A DNA stretch of 64,000 nucleotides. Source: an uncultured Candidatus Saccharibacteria bacterium (GTDB taxonomy: Bacteria > Patescibacteriota > Saccharimonadia > Saccharimonadales > SZUA-47). The notes under the pieces were generated by a model. It was not told where the DNA came from. It worked only from the letters and a program-made list of their open reading frames with translations, and did not search any database. A program made the position numbers and the translations under genes. The number at the start of each line of letters is the position of its first letter. Position 1 is the first letter of the stretch. Positions 24,427 through 30,507 of the stretch are shown in pieces. The DNA is taken from NCBI GenBank assembly GCA_964536485.1, contig CAZHXX010000003.1, forward strand, positions 28,101-92,100. Reading direction: 5' to 3'.

Positions 24427-25110
24427 ATGAATTACAGAATCCTCGCAGTAGTAGATGCTAGCGACACCGGCGTTGAAAGCGTTGCTGTTCCTGCAGAAGA
24501 AACAACCGCTAATGAAGCCACACATTCTAGCGCAGAAACAACTGCCACTGGCGCTGAAGAAACTCACTCAGAAACAACTCATGCAACTGAAGGCGAACAC
24601 GCGACAGAAGAGTCTGAAGGTATTGCAGCCCTCGGTCTGAGCCCAACTGCCATTGGTGCACAGCTTTTGACGTTTTTCGTTTTGTTCTTTGTGGTAAAGA
24701 AATTTGCTCTAGAAGGCATTGTTAAAAACTTGCAGAAGCGTCACGACGACATCAACCGTGGCTTACACCTCACCGCTGAGCTAGACAAGCAAAAGGCAGA
24801 GCTTGACGAACGCGTTGAGTCCGCGCTTAAGGCAGCTCGCAAAGAAGCTGACCTTATCATTGCAGATGCACACGCTGAAACTGGCAAGATGATTCAAGCC
24901 GCTGAAGAAAAGGCAAGCCTTAAGGCTGACGAAATTATTCGCTCTGCTGAAGGCAAGATTGAGCGTGATATTGCCGAAGCTCGCACAGGCCTTAAGAAAG
25001 AAATGGCAAGCCTTATTACGGAAGCGACTGAAGCAATCTTGGGCCAAAAGCTCGACGCAAATGCAGACCGCAAATTGGTTGAAGATTACCTCAAAGGAGC
25101 GATGAAGTAA
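24427..25110 (+). CDS. atpF: F0F1 ATP synthase subunit b with ~75-aa acidic low-complexity N-terminal extension
   Basis: TM LLTFFVLFFVV followed by a long charged helix; the N-terminus is E/T/A/H-rich. Confidence 0.85.
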   Translation: MNYRILAVVDASDTGVESVAVPAEETTANEATHSSAETTATGAEETHSETTHATEGEHATEESEGIAALGLSPTAIGAQLLTFFVLFFVVKKFALEGIVKNLQKRHDDINRGLHLTAELDKQKAELDERVESALKAARKEADLIIADAHAETGKMIQAAEEKASLKADEIIRSAEGKIERDIAEARTGLKKEMASLITEATEAILGQKLDANADRKLVEDYLKGAMK

Positions 25111-25454
25111 TGAGTCTCCAACTGTCTCTTGGATTTGAAAGAGGTGAGCCAACCTTAGTCAGGGGTGAGACAGGGCTCTATGTCGAAATGCAAACCGAGG
25201 GAGTATTTAATGGGTTCATGCCAACGGACCAAGAAATCTCTGAGTGTGTAGTTAGAGAAGTAGAAGGCGCTACGGCAGATGTGATAGACCCAGCCCAAAT
25301 TGCCGTTCTAGATGCAACGATGGTTGAACATGATAGGCTTTTTAGACTGGGGTTAAAAGAGCTTGTCGAAGTATATGGTGTTGCTATATCTGATGAAGAT
25401 GTAACAGGAGCGTATTATGCGGGCTATGCCACGCCGGAGGTAGTGTATGGCTAA
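25110..25454 (+). CDS. orphan ORF intercalated between atpF and atpH (acidic, 114 aa)
   Basis: ATG overlaps the atpF stop (TAATG); its stop overlaps the atpH start (ATGGCTAA); AAAGGAG upstream; all five Arg codons are AGR. Confidence 0.6.
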   Translation: MSLQLSLGFERGEPTLVRGETGLYVEMQTEGVFNGFMPTDQEISECVVREVEGATADVIDPAQIAVLDATMVEHDRLFRLGLKELVEVYGVAISDEDVTGAYYAGYATPEVVYG

Positions 25455-25833
25455 GATTTCTATCCACCAACTTGCTGAATATGCGGTTTCGCAACTTGAA
25501 AAAGGCGTGTCTTCTGACGTGGTTGCAAAGCACATTGCTGGCTACCTGCTTGATGCTCGTCAAGGTCGTGAACTTCCAAAAGTAGTACGTGCAATTGAAG
25601 CGGAGTTAAACCGTCGTGGGAGCTCGCAAGTGGTGATTACCAGCGCGCATGCAGTATCTGATAGTGTCAAGAAAGAGCTCGCAAGCATTCTTGGCGCGCA
25701 GAACCCAGTATTTTATGAAGAGATTGATCCAACTGTCATCGGTGGGGTAAAAGCTCGCAGTGGCGAGTCAGAAATTGACTTGACAGTTCGTGGCAGATTA
25801 CAAAGATTTAAAGCAACAATAGTAAAGAACTAG
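25447..25833 (+). CDS. atpH: F0F1 ATP synthase subunit delta (short form)
   Basis: 128 aa; OSCP C-terminal pattern [26 protein letters not shown]. Confidence 0.8.
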
Positions 25834-25846
25834 TAGGAGTACCCGT

Positions 25847-27382
25847 ATGGCAACAGACGTATCAGTAAAAGATCTCGCAAGCGAAGTACGCGCAGCGATT
25901 GCAGAACTAAAGCAAACTAGCTCGCTTGAAAAAGCCGGAGTGGTAACGCGCGTTGGTGACGGTGTGGCGTGGATTTATGGCTTAAGCACCGCCGGCTATT
26001 CAGAAATGCTTGAAATTGAAAGCGAAAACGGCGAAACGGTTAGTGCCTTTGCGCTCAACCTTATGGAAGACGAAATTGGTGCGGTACTTCTCGGCTCTGA
26101 CACAAAGGTAAAGGCTGGTGCCAAAGTTCGTTTGAGCGGTAAAGTGCTAGAAGTGCCAGTTGGTCCAGAGCTTGTTGGCCGTGTAGTTGACCCGCTTGGA
26201 AACCCACTAGACGACAAGGGTCCTATTAAGACAAAGCTTATGGGTCTTGTAGAGCGCCCTGCCCCTGGTGTTTTGGCACGTAAAAGTGTGCACGAACCAC
26301 TTATGACCGGACTCATGGCTATTGACGGCATGGTACCTATTGGACGTGGTCAGCGTGAGCTTATTATTGGCGATCGACAGACCGGTAAGACTGCTGTTGC
26401 TATCGACACAATGATTAACCAAGCCAAGCAAAAAACTGGCGTGGTAAACATCTATGTGGCTATTGGTCAGAAAATGAGCAAGGTTGCCCGAATTATCGAG
26501 CGACTTGAGCGCGAAGGGGTGATGGACCAGACTATTATCATCGCAACCAGCGCAAACGACCCTGCTTCACTTCAGTATCTTGCGCCGTATGCTGGTGCTG
26601 CTATGGGAGAATACTTCCGCGACAATTCACAGCACGCTCTGATTATCTATGACGATTTGACTAAGCACGCTGTTGCTTACCGTCAAATGAGCTTGCTTCT
26701 TCGTCGCCCACCGGGACGCGAAGCCTACCCTGGTGACGTCTTCTACTTGCACTCACGTCTGCTAGAGCGTGCTGCAAAGTTGTCTGATGCTGAGGGCGCT
26801 GGTTCACTCACTGCACTGCCTATTATTGAAACGCAGGCTGGTGATATCTCTGCCTTTGTGCCTACCAACGTGATTTCTATCACCGATGGTCAGATTTTCA
26901 TGGAGTCAAGCCTCTTTAACCAGGGTATTCGCCCTGCTATCTCTGTTGGTTTGTCTGTCTCTCGTGTGGGTGGTTCTGCTCAGACCAAGGCTGTAAAGGG
27001 CGCGGCTGGTCCACTTCGTTTGAACCTTGCACAGTTCCGCGAGCTTGCTGCTTTTGCACAGTTCTCTAGCGACCTTGATGCTGATACCAAGCAAAAGATT
27101 GAACGTGGTCAGCGACTTACCGAGCTTTTGAAGCAACCACAGTATTCCCCGCTTTCTGTCTGGGAACAAACGGCAAGTCTTATTGCTGCAACCGAAGGCG
27201 CTTTTGACACCGTTCCTGTCGCGCAGATTAAAAAAGCACAACATGCACTTTTGAGCCAGCTTTGGAGCGAAAAGCGTAAAGACATGGAAACGCTTGATAA
27301 AGGCGACAAAGTTGACGACAAGATGAAAGAAGTCATCTTGAAACAAGCTGAAACCGTCGCAAAGGAATACCGTGAGAGCTAG
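25847..27382 (+). CDS. atpA: F0F1 ATP synthase subunit alpha
   Basis: Walker [10 protein letters not shown]; 511 aa. Confidence 0.95.
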
Positions 27383-28440: not shown

Positions 28441-28782
28441 ATGAGGCCTTTAGAAATACTTGCTGGCCGCCCCTATCCTGCTATGCCTGATGGCTACGGA
28501 GACGATTTACGTGATGAGCGTCAAAGAATAGAATTATGCGCAGGTTTTGCACTCGATGTCGTAAAGTTTAGGGGGCTACGAACTGTCATAGAACAAGTAG
28601 CAGGAAGCCCTATTCCGAATTTTGATGAAACTGCGCGTGATCTACAGATGCAACAAGTCGGATACTGGGATATCGAGCGGGCCACACACAATGAGCTTGC
28701 CGAGCGGCGAAGGGCCTGGCGAAGCGACCTGATACACCTAAGAGGACTAAGACAAGCACTACAACAAAGGAGAACAAACTAG
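28441..28782 (+). CDS. orphan ORF intercalated between atpG and atpD (Arg-rich, 113 aa)
   Basis: ATG abuts the atpG stop; its TAG ends 1 nt before the atpD ATG; the atpD RBS AAGGAG lies inside its 3' end; about half of its Arg codons are AGR. Confidence 0.6.
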
Positions 28783-28783
28783 C

Positions 28784-30169
28784 ATGAGTACAGCAACAGC
28801 GAATAAAACAGGAAAAGGACGCGTCACCCAAGTTGTGGGCGTGGTTGTCGACGTAGAATTTGATGGCGAATTGCCAGCTATTTATGACGCACTTACCTTC
28901 CAGCTAGATGGCAACACAGTTTATCTTGAAGTTGCACAGCACTTGAGCGAGAATTCGATTCGCGCCGTAGCACTAGGCGGTACGGATGGCCTTACTAGAG
29001 GCACTGAAGTGGTTGCTACTGGTTCGCCAGTGCAAGTACCGATTGGTCCAGAAACACAAGGCCGTATGTTCAACGTTGTTGGTGACCCGATTGATGGCAA
29101 GCCAGCACCAAAAGGCAAGCGAGCGTCTATCCACCGTGAACCACCTGCATTGTCAGAGCTTTCAGGCAAAACTGAAATCTTGGAAACTGGTATCAAGGTT
29201 ATTGACCTTATCTGCCCAGTGACCAAAGGTGGTAAAGTAGGTCTCTTTGGTGGTGCTGGTGTGGGTAAGACGGTGCTTATTACCGAGCTTATTAACAACA
29301 TTGCAAAATTCCACAGTGGTAACTCGGTCTTTGCCGGTGTTGGTGAGCGTACCCGTGAAGGTAACGACCTCTACCACGAAATGGCAGACTCTGGTGTGCT
29401 TGATAAGACTTCCCTCGTCTTTGGACAGATGAACGAGCCACCTGGAGCACGTTTACGCGTGGGACTTTCTGGGCTAACAATTGCTGAAGGCTTCCGTGAT
29501 GAAGGAAAAGACGTGTTGTTGTTTGTTGACAACATCTTCCGCTTCACGCAAGCCGGTTCTGAGGTGTCTGCCCTTCTTGGCCGACTTCCTTCAGCTGTGG
29601 GTTACCAGCCAAACTTGGCAACTGAAATGGGTGGCTTACAAGAGCGTATTACCAGCACAAAGAAAGGCTCAATTACGTCTGTGCAGGCCGTCTATGTGCC
29701 AGCAGACGACGTCACTGACCCAGCGCCAGCAACAACCTTTGCTCACCTAGACTCGACCATTGTGCTTAACCGTGCGTTGACAGAGCTTGGCCTCTACCCT
29801 GCTGTTGACCCACTTGACTCAAGCTCAACCATTCTTGACCCTGAAATTGTTGGTGAAGAACACTATGCAGTTGCTCGTGAAGTACAGCGAATTTTGCAAC
29901 GGTACAAGGACTTGCAGGATATCATTGCAATTTTGGGTATGGAAGAACTTTCTGACGACGACAAAAAGACAGTTGCCCGAGCGCGACGTTTGCAACGTTT
30001 CTTGACCCAGCCATTCTATGTAGCTGAAGTCTTCTCAGGTATTCCTGGCCAGTACGTTAAGCTCGCAGATACGATTAAGACCTGCCGCGAAATTCTTGAC
30101 GGTAAGCACGACGACTTGCCAGAGAGCGACTTCTATATGAAGGGCGGCACTGTTAAGGGAGAGAAATAG
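28784..30169 (+). CDS. atpD: F0F1 ATP synthase subunit beta
   Basis: Walker [10 protein letters not shown]; 461 aa. Confidence 0.95.
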
Positions 30170-30507
30170 TGTCTGTTGAAGAAGGTTTTAACAGGCAGAA
30201 TAGAGTCCAGCAATTAAGCGGAGAGGCTGAGCCAACAATTCATGGCTATCTTATCCGTTCTGCGCTTGTAGCTTTTCCGCTTGCAGTTGCTTCAATCGCA
30301 CTCACTGGTGCAGAAAAATTTGCAAGTAGTGTTGCGGTTGCACGAGTTCACACGGGTCGCTTGAGAGGGTCGTTACTTCATATTGCGCAAGAGCTTGGAG
30401 ATGGCGCTGAGGACGACCAACCTGCAGTCGCTACGGACGGAGTACGACATCTCGCACCACGCCATTCTGTCGAACAGCCAATAAGTTATCAAAGGAGAAG
30501 AGGATGA
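30169..30507 (+). CDS. orphan ORF intercalated between atpD and atpC (one hydrophobic segment, 112 aa)
   Basis: GTG overlaps the atpD stop (TAGTG) behind AAGGGAGAG; its stop overlaps the atpC start (ATGA); hydrophobic LIRSALVAFPLAVASIALTGA. Confidence 0.55.
   Translation: MSVEEGFNRQNRVQQLSGEAEPTIHGYLIRSALVAFPLAVASIALTGAEKFASSVAVARVHTGRLRGSLLHIAQELGDGAEDDQPAVATDGVRHLAPRHSVEQPISYQRRRG

What the first reader, a model, noticed from the sequence alone, without database searches (positions are those of the whole stretch)
25110..30507. Three 112-114-codon orphan ORFs fill the atpF|atpH, atpG|atpD and atpD|atpC junctions of the ATP synthase operon
The operon order is atpB-E-F-[ORF 25110-25454]-H-A-G-[ORF 28441-28782]-D-[ORF 30169-30507]-C. 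Each insert is ~340 nt and is open across the entire spacer. Each is joined to its neighbours by stop/start overlap or abutment: TAATG and ATGGCTAA, TAA-ATG and TAG-n-ATG, TAGTG and ATGA. Each has an SD-like motif upstream and contains the SD of the downstream atp gene. Three spacers of this length being open end-to-end by chance is very unlikely. The three products are unrelated to each other by eye: one acidic, one Arg-rich helical, one with a single hydrophobic segment and an RRRG tail. Codon usage is discordant. Every Arg codon I read in atpA is CGN, whereas ORF1 uses AGA/AGG for 5 of 5 and ORF2 and ORF3 for about half, and ATA/CTA codons are frequent. Canonical bacterial atp operons have no genes at these junctions, and these do not look like AtpI/AtpZ or N-ATPase AtpQ/R. 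They could be lineage-specific accessory or regulatory subunits, selfish insertions exploiting translational coupling, or expanded spacers that happen to be open.
Basis: partly seen in the sequence, partly recalled or inferred. Interest (0 to 1): 0.8.

Follow-up and report, generated by a model that had tools for sequence, protein, structure and literature searches.

The report
Orphan genes wedged into ATP-synthase operon
Three small genes of unknown function sit between subunit genes of the ATP synthase operon of this Saccharibacteria genome, and the same junctions carry fast-changing, mostly unrecognisable small genes in most relatives, so a core energy operon also serves as a rack of slots for variable genes.

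Summary
ORF1 (25110-25454), ORF2 (28441-28782) and ORF3 (30169-30507) fill the atpF|atpH, atpG|atpD and atpD|atpC junctions end to end. The joint chance of all three being open is about 3e-7.

They are not chance-open spacers. In 160 related Saccharimonadia atp loci the atpA|G, G|D and D|C junctions are occupied in 35-88% of genomes. Spacers over 100 nt are almost always same-strand ORFs, and 75-78% of the ends of occupied gaps lie within -8..+5 nt of the neighbouring gene. 82% have an SD, against 8% of control ATGs.

The occupants are mostly unrelated orphans: median 98 aa, 72% acidic, 133 of 135 without a Pfam hit. Where homologues exist, dN/dS is 0.1-0.4. ORF2 belongs to a ~70-aa family found only at G|D. 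ORF1 and ORF3 have no relative anywhere.

Close relatives differ by clean gene-sized presence/absence. One junction family is the 23S-rRNA-IVS four-helix-bundle protein, seen at three different junctions. In cultured Southlakia the G|D slot holds a protein with a nucleoside-deoxyribosyltransferase-like fold.

Best reading: translationally coupled hitchhiker genes in hypervariable operon slots, not ATP synthase subunits. I found no published description of this.

The parts
24427..25110 (+). atpF (b subunit, 227 aa), the upstream neighbour of ORF1
   Evidence: Pfam ATP-synt_B E=4e-17. Its stop TAA overlaps the ORF1 ATG by one base.
25110..25454 (+). ORF1: 114 aa, acidic (pI 4.1), an orphan that fills the atpF|atpH junction
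   Evidence: ORF list. SD AAGGAG at 25094-25099. Codon LLR 0.52 bits/codon, against 0.37+-0.08 for in-frame 113-codon chunks of the window's genes and -0.73 off-frame. No Pfam, NCBIfam, PADLOC, PDB or phage hit. Only a self-hit in the 5.8-billion and 1.84-billion protein searches. AF2 single-sequence pLDDT 33.
25447..25833 (+). atpH (delta subunit, only 128 aa); its start lies inside ORF1's last 8 nt
   Evidence: Pfam OSCP E=8e-13, covering profile positions 60-171 only. ATGGCTAA overlap.
27408..27518 (+). Possible 36-codon mini-ORF in the atpA|atpG spacer, not in the original finding
   Evidence: Sequence and translation. GAGGA lies 7 nt upstream. It ends in the same 8-nt ATGGCTAG overlap with atpG that relatives' A|G ORFs use. 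In relatives 92% of 100-150 nt gaps are open, against 19% expected.
27511..28440 (+). atpG (gamma subunit, 309 aa), the upstream neighbour of ORF2
   Evidence: Identified as gamma by Pfam PF00231 (ATP-synt) on the identical Logan gene call and by 36-80% identity to AtpG regions in 160 loci.
28441..28782 (+). ORF2: 113 aa, predicted helical, member of a ~70-aa family found only at the atpG|atpD junction
   Evidence: ORF list. SD GGAGG at 28425-28429. An 87% identical homologue on L161 gives dN/dS 0.23-0.27, and junction indels there preserve the coupling. Family members at the same junction: L012, L043, L122, L006, L017, L098. AF2 pLDDT 68 with helices 20-54, 63-73 and 83-112. No fold match.
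28784..30169 (+). atpD (beta subunit, 461 aa), lying between ORF2 and ORF3
   Evidence: 75-95% identity to the AtpD of Saccharibacteria relatives. Its SD AAGGAG at 28767-28772 lies inside ORF2.
30169..30507 (+). ORF3: 112 aa, GTG start, one hydrophobic segment, an orphan that fills the atpD|atpC junction
   Evidence: ORF list. TAGTG and ATGA overlaps, and SD-like AAGGGAGAG at 30155-30163. Codon LLR 0.38. Maximum 19-residue Kyte-Doolittle hydropathy 1.89. No homologue. No hit in Pfam, NCBIfam, PADLOC, PDB or phages. The 'QRRRG' tail is atpC's SD AAAGGAGAAGAGG read in ORF3's frame.
30504..30929 (+). atpC (epsilon subunit, 141 aa), the downstream neighbour of ORF3
   Evidence: Pfam ATP-synt_DE_N E=1e-15.

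Best explanation
ORF1, ORF2 and ORF3 are real small protein genes. They are co-transcribed with the atp operon and translated by ribosome hand-over at overlapping or abutting stop/start codons.

They are local examples of a feature found across the class Saccharimonadia. The junctions around the F1 genes (alpha|gamma, gamma|beta, beta|epsilon, and in this clade also b|delta and delta|alpha) behave as slots. The slots hold rapidly turning-over, mostly orphan, mostly acidic ~100-aa 'passenger' genes.

The passengers use ordinary rather than atp-optimised codons and are under moderate purifying selection. They are gained and lost as whole gene-sized blocks.

Inferred steps, not shown: an insert survives here only as an uninterrupted, coupled ORF, because an untranslated stretch or premature stop would have polar effects on the downstream atp genes. 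Turnover runs through homologous recombination, using the highly conserved alpha and beta genes as arms, in naturally competent cells.

On this reading the products are cargo that borrows the operon's expression, not ATP synthase subunits.
For: Shown in the window:
- Each ORF is open end to end, with per-gap chance 0.003-0.012.
- In-frame codon scores match real genes: 0.52, 0.20 and 0.38, against 0.37+-0.08 for in-frame 113-codon chunks of the window's genes (5th percentile 0.24) and -0.73 off-frame. ORF2's 0.20 is below the genes' 5th percentile but far above the off-frame 95th percentile of -0.37. GC1>GC2>GC3.
- SDs and overlaps are present.
- Promoter-like and terminator-like sites are at chance level.

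Shown across the lineage:
- A|G, G|D and D|C are occupied in 35-88% of genomes with AtpG at least 45% identical, and in 0-10% of more distant ones.
- 88 of 126 gaps are at least 90% open on the + strand, against 7 of 126 on the - strand.
- Gap lengths are bimodal. Gaps of 100-250 nt are fully open in 92-97% of cases, against 6-19% expected.
- In 210 occupied gaps, 78% of ORFs start within -8..+5 nt of the upstream stop and 75% end within -8..+5 nt of the next start. 82% have an SD, against 8% for control ATGs. 86% of gaps are at least 90% covered by discrete ORFs.

Selection: ORF2 against L161 has dN/dS 0.23 (binomial p=5e-4). Other junction-ORF pairs give 0.11-0.41, while the atpG C-terminus gives 0.02.

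Turnover:
- DNA similarity to relatives stops exactly at atp gene borders.
- 133 of 244 junction ORFs are singletons, and profile-profile comparison links no families.
- L017 and L098 (93% identical atpG DNA) have 6 and 359 nt at A|G. L091 and L088 (92%) have 4 and 321 nt. In both cases the extra DNA is exactly one coupled ORF.

Cargo nature:
- The PF05635 four-helix-bundle family sits at A|G, G|D or D|C in different genomes.
- In cultured Southlakia epibionticum the G|D slot gene SEML1_0356 overlaps gamma by 4 nt and beta by 8 nt. It was assigned a nucleoside 2-deoxyribosyltransferase / DUF4406-like fold (PMC10633639 Tables).

Codon usage: the AGR share of Arg codons is 0.44 in junction ORFs and 0.10 in atp genes across 93 loci (p=7e-17). 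Junction-ORF GC tracks host GC (r=0.64).
Against: - ORF1 and ORF3 have no homologue at all, so there is no evolutionary evidence for selection on their amino-acid sequences. Their status rests on intrinsic coding signals and on analogy with relatives.
- There are no expression or peptide data for any of them.
- No mobility machinery, terminal repeats or second copies were found, so how the blocks move is inference.
- Most multi-member families are junction-specific. That fits vertical inheritance with fast divergence as well as it fits cassette exchange.
- Tn insertions in SEML1_0356 decline like insertions in the atp genes: normalised reads 1470, 748, 275, against 1393, 918, 302 for gamma. 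This could mean a shared function rather than polarity.
- I did not test whether other conserved operons of these genomes carry similar slots. 8 of 20 other small genes in the window also lack a Pfam hit, so orphans are common in this genome.
Confidence: 0.6

Rival explanations
1. The junction ORFs are lineage-specific, fast-evolving accessory or regulatory partners of the F1Fo ATP synthase. Examples would be assembly factors or inhibitors of ATP hydrolysis, kept next to the subunits they act on.
For: - Occupancy is concentrated at the three junctions around alpha, gamma, beta and epsilon and is rare at a|c, b|delta and delta|alpha.
- Several families are strictly junction-specific across deep divergence, including the ORF2 family at G|D in genomes with 53-98% AtpG identity.
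- There is purifying selection.
- ORF2 is predicted to be a helical hairpin or bundle. From general knowledge, known small F1 inhibitors (IF1, zeta, the epsilon C-terminus) are also helical.
- Tn insertions in Southlakia SEML1_0356 track those in atp genes.
Against: - Occupants are non-homologous between close relatives. With AtpD 94-95% identical, the D|C ORFs are 112, 146 and 163+52 aa with no detectable similarity.
- 12-65% of genomes leave a given slot empty.
- Clean presence/absence occurs between genomes with 92-93% identical atpG DNA.
- Identifiable occupants have unrelated folds: the four-helix 23S_rRNA_IVP family and a deoxyribosyltransferase-like fold.
- Their codon usage is not tuned like that of the atp genes.
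- No match to AtpI/AtpZ or any ATPase-related Pfam family.
Confidence: 0.17
2. ORF1 and ORF3 are translated spacers. The DNA is junk that must stay open and coupled so that ribosomes reach the downstream atp gene and the mRNA is not left bare. The peptide sequence itself is not selected.
For: - ORF1 and ORF3 have no homologue in any search.
- ORF1 gives no confident fold.
- Spacers over 100 nt are almost never untranslated in 160 loci, which is what a polarity constraint alone would produce.
- The C-terminal residues are dictated by the next gene's SD and start codon.
Against: - Every junction-ORF pair that could be measured has dN/dS of 0.11-0.41, not about 1.
- ORF1 and ORF3 have gene-like codon scores and the GC1>GC2>GC3 pattern.
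- Gap lengths are bimodal, and inserts come and go as whole gene-sized blocks with their own SD. Gradual spacer growth would not give this pattern.
Confidence: 0.15
3. The ORFs are chance-open spacers, an assembly artefact or mis-called gene extensions.
For: None beyond the lack of homologues for ORF1 and ORF3.
Against: - The joint chance of openness is about 3e-7.
- Independent Logan contigs are identical across the ORF1 and ORF2 junctions; the ORF3 junction has no independent coverage.
- The ORFs are in different frames from, or separated by stops from, their neighbours.
- The pattern recurs across 160 loci.
Confidence: 0.02

Closest known systems
Phage 'morons' and free-standing genes inserted between conserved neighbours in phage genomes (recalled from general knowledge)
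   Same: Extra, unrelated, often orphan genes sit between conserved syntenic genes. They are present or absent between close relatives, and their codon usage differs from that of their neighbours.
   Different: Morons typically bring their own promoter and terminator. Here promoter-like and terminator-like sites are at chance level, and expression must come from the operon transcript through translational coupling. The host is a cellular core-metabolism operon, not a phage, and there is no phage match.
Accessory genes of atp operons: AtpI/AtpZ, and AtpQ/AtpR of N-ATPases
   Same: They are small genes co-transcribed with the ATP synthase structural genes.
   Different: Those genes are conserved membrane-protein families located upstream of atpB. 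They are not hypervariable occupants of F1 junctions. There is no Pfam or NCBIfam match. Southlakia has a separate AtpZ/AtpI gene upstream of atpB in addition to its G|D slot gene.
Small F1 inhibitor proteins: mitochondrial IF1, alphaproteobacterial zeta subunit, cyanobacterial AtpTheta (recalled from general knowledge)
   Same: They are short, fast-evolving, largely helical proteins, and ORF2 is predicted helical.
   Different: To my knowledge none of these is encoded at these junctions. Each is a single conserved family within its lineage. There is no sequence or fold match.
23S rRNA intervening-sequence protein / four-helix-bundle (Avd-like) family, PF05635
   Same: A small gene found inserted inside otherwise conserved, highly expressed transcription units. 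Members occupy A|G, G|D or D|C junctions in seven related loci.
   Different: The window's ORF1-3 are not members. This family accounts for only 7 of the 244 junction ORFs clustered (2 of the 135 scanned against Pfam).
SEML1_0356 of Southlakia epibionticum (PMC10633639, Tables S1 and S2)
   Same: It has the same position (between gamma and beta), the same 4-nt and 8-nt overlaps, is annotated 'hypothetical', and has no Pfam hit.
   Different: It is 160 aa with a predicted nucleoside 2-deoxyribosyltransferase / DUF4406-like fold.

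Membership tests
AtpI / AtpZ (atp operon accessory membrane proteins) | Match to the family profile; position upstream of atpB; multi-pass membrane protein | tested here: not met
   No Pfam or NCBIfam hit for ORF1-3 at E<=1. The position is inside the F1 block. Only ORF3 has a hydrophobic segment, and only one.
Duplicated or split ATP synthase subunit (delta, epsilon, b) | Profile match to OSCP, ATP-synt_DE_N or ATP-synt_B | tested here: not met
   No hit for ORF1-3. The short 128-aa delta occurs in all relatives whether or not the F|H slot is filled.
23S_rRNA_IVP four-helix-bundle / Avd-like | Match to PF05635 or PHROG 3206 | tested here: not met
   No hit for ORF1-3. 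The two related junction ORFs included in the scan do match, at E=9e-35.
ORF2 junction family (defined here) | A ~70-aa module with the motifs LE.VAG..P and W/F....L..L.GL(R), encoded between atpG and atpD | tested here: met
   ORF2 residues 40-113 score 115 bits against the family HMM. Members are L161, L012, L043, L122, L006, L017 and L098, all at G|D. ORF1 and ORF3 do not match.
Translationally coupled operon gene | Stop/start overlap or abutment with both neighbours, and an SD inside the upstream ORF | tested here: met
   for the window. for 210 related junction gaps. Actual coupling (ribosome hand-over) cannot be tested with these tools.
Phage-type moron | An inserted gene with its own promoter and terminator | tested here: not met
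   Promoter-like and terminator-like sites are at chance level (11 found against 10.2 expected, and 12 against 9.9), and the listed sites do not bracket any of the three inserts as a promoter-terminator unit.
Anti-phage defence or phage protein | Match to PADLOC or PHROGs models, or to phage genomes | tested here: not met
Mobile element (IS, MITE, homing-endonuclease gene) | Terminal repeats, target duplication, a transposase or nuclease domain, or multiple copies | tested here: not met
   No flanking repeats, no domain hit, no second copy in the window or in 5.8 billion proteins.
DUF4406 / nucleoside 2-deoxyribosyltransferase-like (the Southlakia G|D occupant) | Fold match | tested here: inconclusive
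   The ORF2 model is all-helical with no PDB fold match, which argues against membership. The ORF1 model was too poor to use.

The most novel reading that the evidence does not exclude
The F1 junctions of the Saccharimonadia atp operon act as a polarity-protected nursery for new genes. Any DNA that lands there must stay open and coupled to keep the downstream subunits translated. It is therefore expressed from the first day and shielded from pseudogenisation. This drives the birth and rapid turnover of novel proteins such as ORF1 and ORF3, some of which later acquire functions, possibly including control of the ATPase in these respiration-less epibionts.
Probability: 0.2. Interest if true: 0.8.

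Novelty: new variant of a known kind. Interest (0 to 1): 0.6.

Why it matters
The F1Fo atp operon is among the most conserved gene arrangements in bacteria, and textbook operons have nothing at these junctions. Here a whole bacterial class keeps the subunit genes under very strong constraint (dN/dS about 0.02). At the same time it tolerates, at defined junctions, a constantly changing set of coupled small genes that have no relatives anywhere.

If the reading is right, this gives three things:
- A natural system for studying how orphan genes arise, are kept open and turn over, with conserved flanks that make every event alignable.
- A caution for annotating CPR genomes and for interpreting transposon screens. 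Slot genes will phenocopy atp genes through polarity.
- A short list of candidate lineage-specific ATPase partners, starting with the ORF2 family and Southlakia SEML1_0356. These can be tested in the now genetically tractable Saccharibacteria.

Tried and rejected
Searches that found nothing:
- Family searches for ORF1-3: Pfam, NCBIfam, PADLOC. PHROGs via the 135-sequence set.
- Homologue searches in 5.8 billion proteins and the exhaustive 1.84-billion search for ORF1. The only extra hit, P0005, is a 1407-aa repeat protein matched through six summed stretches, and I treat it as spurious.
- PDB sequence searches.
- Foldseek of the ORF2 model against PDB, best E=2.2. The AFDB library was not available.
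- tblastn against phages.
- Rfam over 22000-32000.

Ideas tested and dropped:
- The three inserts are copies of one element: rejected.
- ORF1 supplies the missing N-terminal part of the short delta subunit: rejected, because delta is equally short where the F|H slot is empty.
- ORF2 is a read-through extension of gamma: rejected, because the in-frame relation is lost in L161.
- ORF1 or ORF3 are diverged positional orthologues of relatives' F|H or D|C ORFs: best shuffle p values are 0.017 and 0.026 before correcting for about 10 tests each, so not significant.
- Junction families form superfamilies: hhalign best probability 49%, nothing involving the window's ORFs.
- The larger G|D ORFs of relatives match DUF4406 by sequence: no.

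An attempt to obtain the long NCBI contig with gene calls returned only short Logan contigs.

Full report
OBSERVATION

The region reads atpB 23078-23956, atpE 23975-24223, atpF 24427-25110, ORF1 25110-25454, atpH 25447-25833, atpA 25847-27382, atpG 27511-28440, ORF2 28441-28782, atpD 28784-30169, ORF3 30169-30507, atpC 30504-30929. All are on the + strand.

For composition-matched shuffles, the chance that a spacer is at least 95% open in any + frame is 0.003, 0.009 and 0.012. All three together is about 3e-7.

Two Logan contigs assembled independently from run SRR11567528 are 100% identical to window 24109-26826 and 26846-28973. The ORF1 and ORF2 junctions are therefore not an artefact of one assembly. 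The ORF3 junction has no independent coverage.

The three inserts are unrelated to one another at the DNA level. No Rfam family matches the region. Promoter-like and terminator-like sites are at chance level, and the best promoter-like site (22997-23025) lies upstream of atpB. No repeats flank the inserts.

INTRINSIC CODING SIGNALS

I built a codon model from 38 long genes of the window. It scores ORF1, ORF2 and ORF3 at 0.52, 0.20 and 0.38 bits per codon in frame. In-frame 113-codon chunks of real genes score 0.37+-0.08 (5th percentile 0.24), and off-frame chunks score -0.73+-0.24. ORF2's 0.20 is below the genes' 5th percentile but far above the off-frame 95th percentile of -0.37. All three ORFs show GC1>GC2>GC3.

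The atp genes avoid AGA/AGG (5 of 108 Arg codons). The rest of the window uses them for 32% of Arg codons. ORF1 has 5 of 5, ORF2 8 of 17 and ORF3 6 of 11. So the ORFs lack the atp genes' bias and are AGR-richer than the window's other genes.

The same contrast holds in 93 related loci: AGR share 0.44 in junction ORFs against 0.10 in atp genes (p=7e-17). Junction-ORF GC follows host GC (r=0.64).

HOMOLOGY

ORF1-3 have no Pfam, NCBIfam, PADLOC, PDB-sequence or phage match.

In 5.8 billion proteins, ORF1 and ORF3 find only themselves. ORF2 finds itself and one 87% identical protein on a 553-bp ENA contig. The exhaustive HMMER search of 1.84 billion representatives with ORF1 again finds only itself, plus a spurious repeat-protein hit.

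AlphaFold2 gives ORF2 a moderately confident helical model (pLDDT 68, helices 20-54, 63-73 and 83-112). That model has no significant PDB fold match. ORF1 alone gives pLDDT 33.

THE LINEAGE-WIDE PICTURE

Searching with AtpG returned 80 genome loci and 80 metagenome loci, almost all Saccharibacteria/Saccharimonadales. I mapped the eight atp genes onto them.

The junctions atpA|G, atpG|D and atpD|C hold at least 150 nt in the following shares of genomes:
- AtpG at least 70% identical to the window: 58%, 75%, 88%.
- AtpG 55-70% identical: 56%, 77%, 80%.
- AtpG 45-55% identical: 35%, 50%, 37%.
- AtpG below 45% identical, including the Firmicutes hits: 0-10%.

B|E, F|H and H|A are almost never occupied, except in the window's own clade, where F|H is filled in 4 of 8 loci and H|A in 2 of 9. 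E|F holds at least 150 nt in 7-38% of genomes.

Gap lengths at the three hot junctions are bimodal: 138 gaps are 30 nt or less, 46 are 30-150 nt, and 180 are longer than 150 nt. Gaps of 100-250 nt are fully open on the + strand in 92-97% of cases, against 6-19% expected and 14-23% on the - strand. Longer gaps hold two or more ORFs.

In 210 occupied gaps:
- 86% are at least 90% covered by discrete ORFs.
- 78% of ORFs start within -8..+5 nt of the upstream stop, most often at -1 or -4.
- 75% end within -8..+5 nt of the next atp start.
- 82% have an SD motif, against 75% of atp genes and 8% of internal ATGs.

The window's three ORFs are therefore ordinary members of a general pattern. Its 128-nt atpA|G spacer also contains a 36-codon mini-ORF ending in the usual ATGGCTAG overlap.

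WHAT THE OCCUPANTS ARE

I selected 244 non-overlapping junction ORFs. Their median length is 98 aa, 72% have pI below 5, and 5% have a hydrophobic segment.

133 are singletons, and the rest form about 40 small families. Of 135 scanned, 133 have no Pfam hit. The other two are 23S_rRNA_IVP four-helix-bundle proteins (PF05635, E=9e-35; PHROG 'Avd'). Their family sits at A|G, G|D or D|C in seven different loci. All other families are junction-specific. Profile-profile comparison does not join families (best probability 49%).

ORF2 belongs to one such family. It is a ~70-aa module with the motifs LE.VAG..P and W/F....L..L.GL(R), found only between atpG and atpD in L161, L012, L043, L122, L006, L017 and L098. 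Those genomes have AtpG 53-98% identical to the window, and the module is sometimes fused to longer N-terminal parts. By eye, the window's ORF2 carries a second copy of the first motif near its N-terminus ([10 protein letters not shown]).

ORF1 and ORF3 match none of the positional counterparts. The best shuffle p values are 0.017 and 0.026 over about ten comparisons each.

SELECTION AND TURNOVER

ORF2 against L161 has 18 synonymous and 16 non-synonymous differences (dN/dS 0.23; p=5e-4 against neutrality). The other two frames are full of stops, and the adjacent atpG tail has dN/dS 0.02.

Indels at both ends of ORF2 in L161 convert TAA-ATG into TAATG and TAG-n-ATG into ATGA. Coupling is kept while the frame relation to atpG changes.

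Other junction-ORF pairs give dN/dS of 0.11-0.41. Pairs found through protein similarity are biased towards conserved ones, but the 87-98% identical pairs would have been found anyway.

DNA similarity between the window and its nearest relatives (68-81% identity within the atp genes) stops exactly at atp gene borders.

Two pairs of close relatives show clean presence/absence. L017 and L098 (93% identical atpG DNA) have 6 and 359 nt at A|G. L091 and L088 (92%) have 4 and 321 nt. In each case the extra DNA is exactly one SD-led ORF running from just after the alpha stop into the gamma start, with no flanking repeats.

EXPERIMENTAL CONTEXT FROM THE LITERATURE

In the genetically tractable Saccharibacterium Southlakia epibionticum, all ATP synthase components are dispensable in Tn-seq (PMC10633639).

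Its gene table shows atpZ/I-B-E-F-H-A-G, then SEML1_0356 ('hypothetical protein', 341945-342427), then atpD and atpC. SEML1_0356 overlaps gamma by 4 nt and beta by 8 nt. It has no Pfam hit and a structure-based assignment to a nucleoside 2-deoxyribosyltransferase / DUF4406-like fold.

Its insertion mutants decline over passages like those in the atp genes: normalised reads 1470, 748, 275, against 1393, 918, 302 for gamma. The next non-atp gene rises (3049, 4600, 4747). This fits polarity on atpD/atpC but does not exclude a shared function.

I found no paper that describes occupied atp junctions in Saccharibacteria.

INTERPRETATION

Shown: the three ORFs are gene-like, coupled and co-oriented, and they are part of a class-wide pattern of occupied F1 junctions. 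Occupants are mostly unrelated orphans under moderate constraint. Occupancy changes by whole-gene blocks. At least two occupant families have folds with no link to the ATPase.

Inferred: translation occurs by termination-reinitiation. Long untranslated spacers are not tolerated because of polarity. Blocks move by homologous recombination between the conserved alpha and beta flanks in naturally competent cells. The products are passengers rather than subunits.

I put 0.6 on this 'coupled passenger genes in hypervariable slots' model. I put 0.17 on fast-evolving ATPase partners, most plausible for the ORF2 family. I put 0.15 on merely translated spacers, most plausible for ORF1 and ORF3, for which no evolutionary test was possible. 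I put 0.02 on chance or artefact. About 0.06 is left unassigned.

LIMITS

There are no expression data. There are no close relatives for ORF1 and ORF3. ORF3 was not modelled. SEML1_0356 could not be compared with ORF2. Other conserved operons were not surveyed, so specificity to the atp operon rests on the contrast between hot and cold junctions within the operon. 8 of 20 other small genes in the window also lack a Pfam hit, so orphans as such are common in this genome; it is their position that is unusual.

Noticed in passing
window 24348-24401, within the 203-nt atpE|atpF spacer 24224-24426: A 23-nt inverted repeat forms a hairpin directly upstream of the atpF SD (AACCAGAAAGGA). It is conserved in L065, L039 and L107, with 6 of 21 pairs showing compensatory changes. 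This part of the spacer aligns between relatives although the ORF inserts do not. There is no Rfam match. It may be an RNA element controlling b-subunit translation or mRNA processing.
   Followed up: partly
window 27408-27518: A 36-codon mini-ORF (MRNEMICKTDYRQFKLVSSQYSTIKPQLSSTEVIHG) lies in the atpA|atpG spacer, with GAGGA 7 nt upstream and an 8-nt overlap with the atpG start.
   Followed up: partly
window 25447-25833 (atpH): The delta subunit is only 128 aa and matches Pfam OSCP positions 60-171 only. About half of the N-terminal domain, which in other bacteria binds the alpha subunit (general knowledge), is missing. Delta is equally short in the relatives that could be measured.
   Followed up: partly
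window 24427-24610 (5' end of atpF): The b subunit has a ~60-aa Glu/Thr/Ala-rich low-complexity N-terminal extension. Among the 80 genome loci only L039 and L065 align over it; in the others the match starts at residue 41 or later, mostly around 55-65.
   Followed up: no
L064 5362-5820 and L069 3809-4408: In these two loci the apparent atpA|atpG 'junction ORFs' are really the C-terminal half of atpA. So atpA is split or frameshifted there, or these are assembly errors.
   Followed up: no
L083 491-886, L107 4548-4943, L086 2196-2582, L004 3963-4337, L031 3617-4009, L050 1315-1524, L068 8432-8800: Four-helix-bundle 23S_rRNA_IVP (PF05635, Avd-like) genes are inserted at three different atp junctions in different Saccharibacteria. 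They are 41-58% identical to each other, apart from an identical pair (L083 and L107), so these are not recent copies.
   Followed up: partly
window 28285-28835 compared with L161: Synonymous divergence drops from about 1.27 in the last 50 codons of atpG to 0.29 in ORF2 and 0.18 in the first 17 codons of atpD. This could be a recombination breakpoint at the junction or extra constraint on ORF2's DNA. The sample is small.
   Followed up: no
window 52242-52721 (- strand): A 158-aa gene with no Pfam hit sits inside a tight same-strand cluster (47380-53390). It may be another orphan embedded in an operon. Seven other small genes (12288, 14444, 22321, 39016, 40171, 56518, 60540) also lack Pfam hits.
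   Followed up: no
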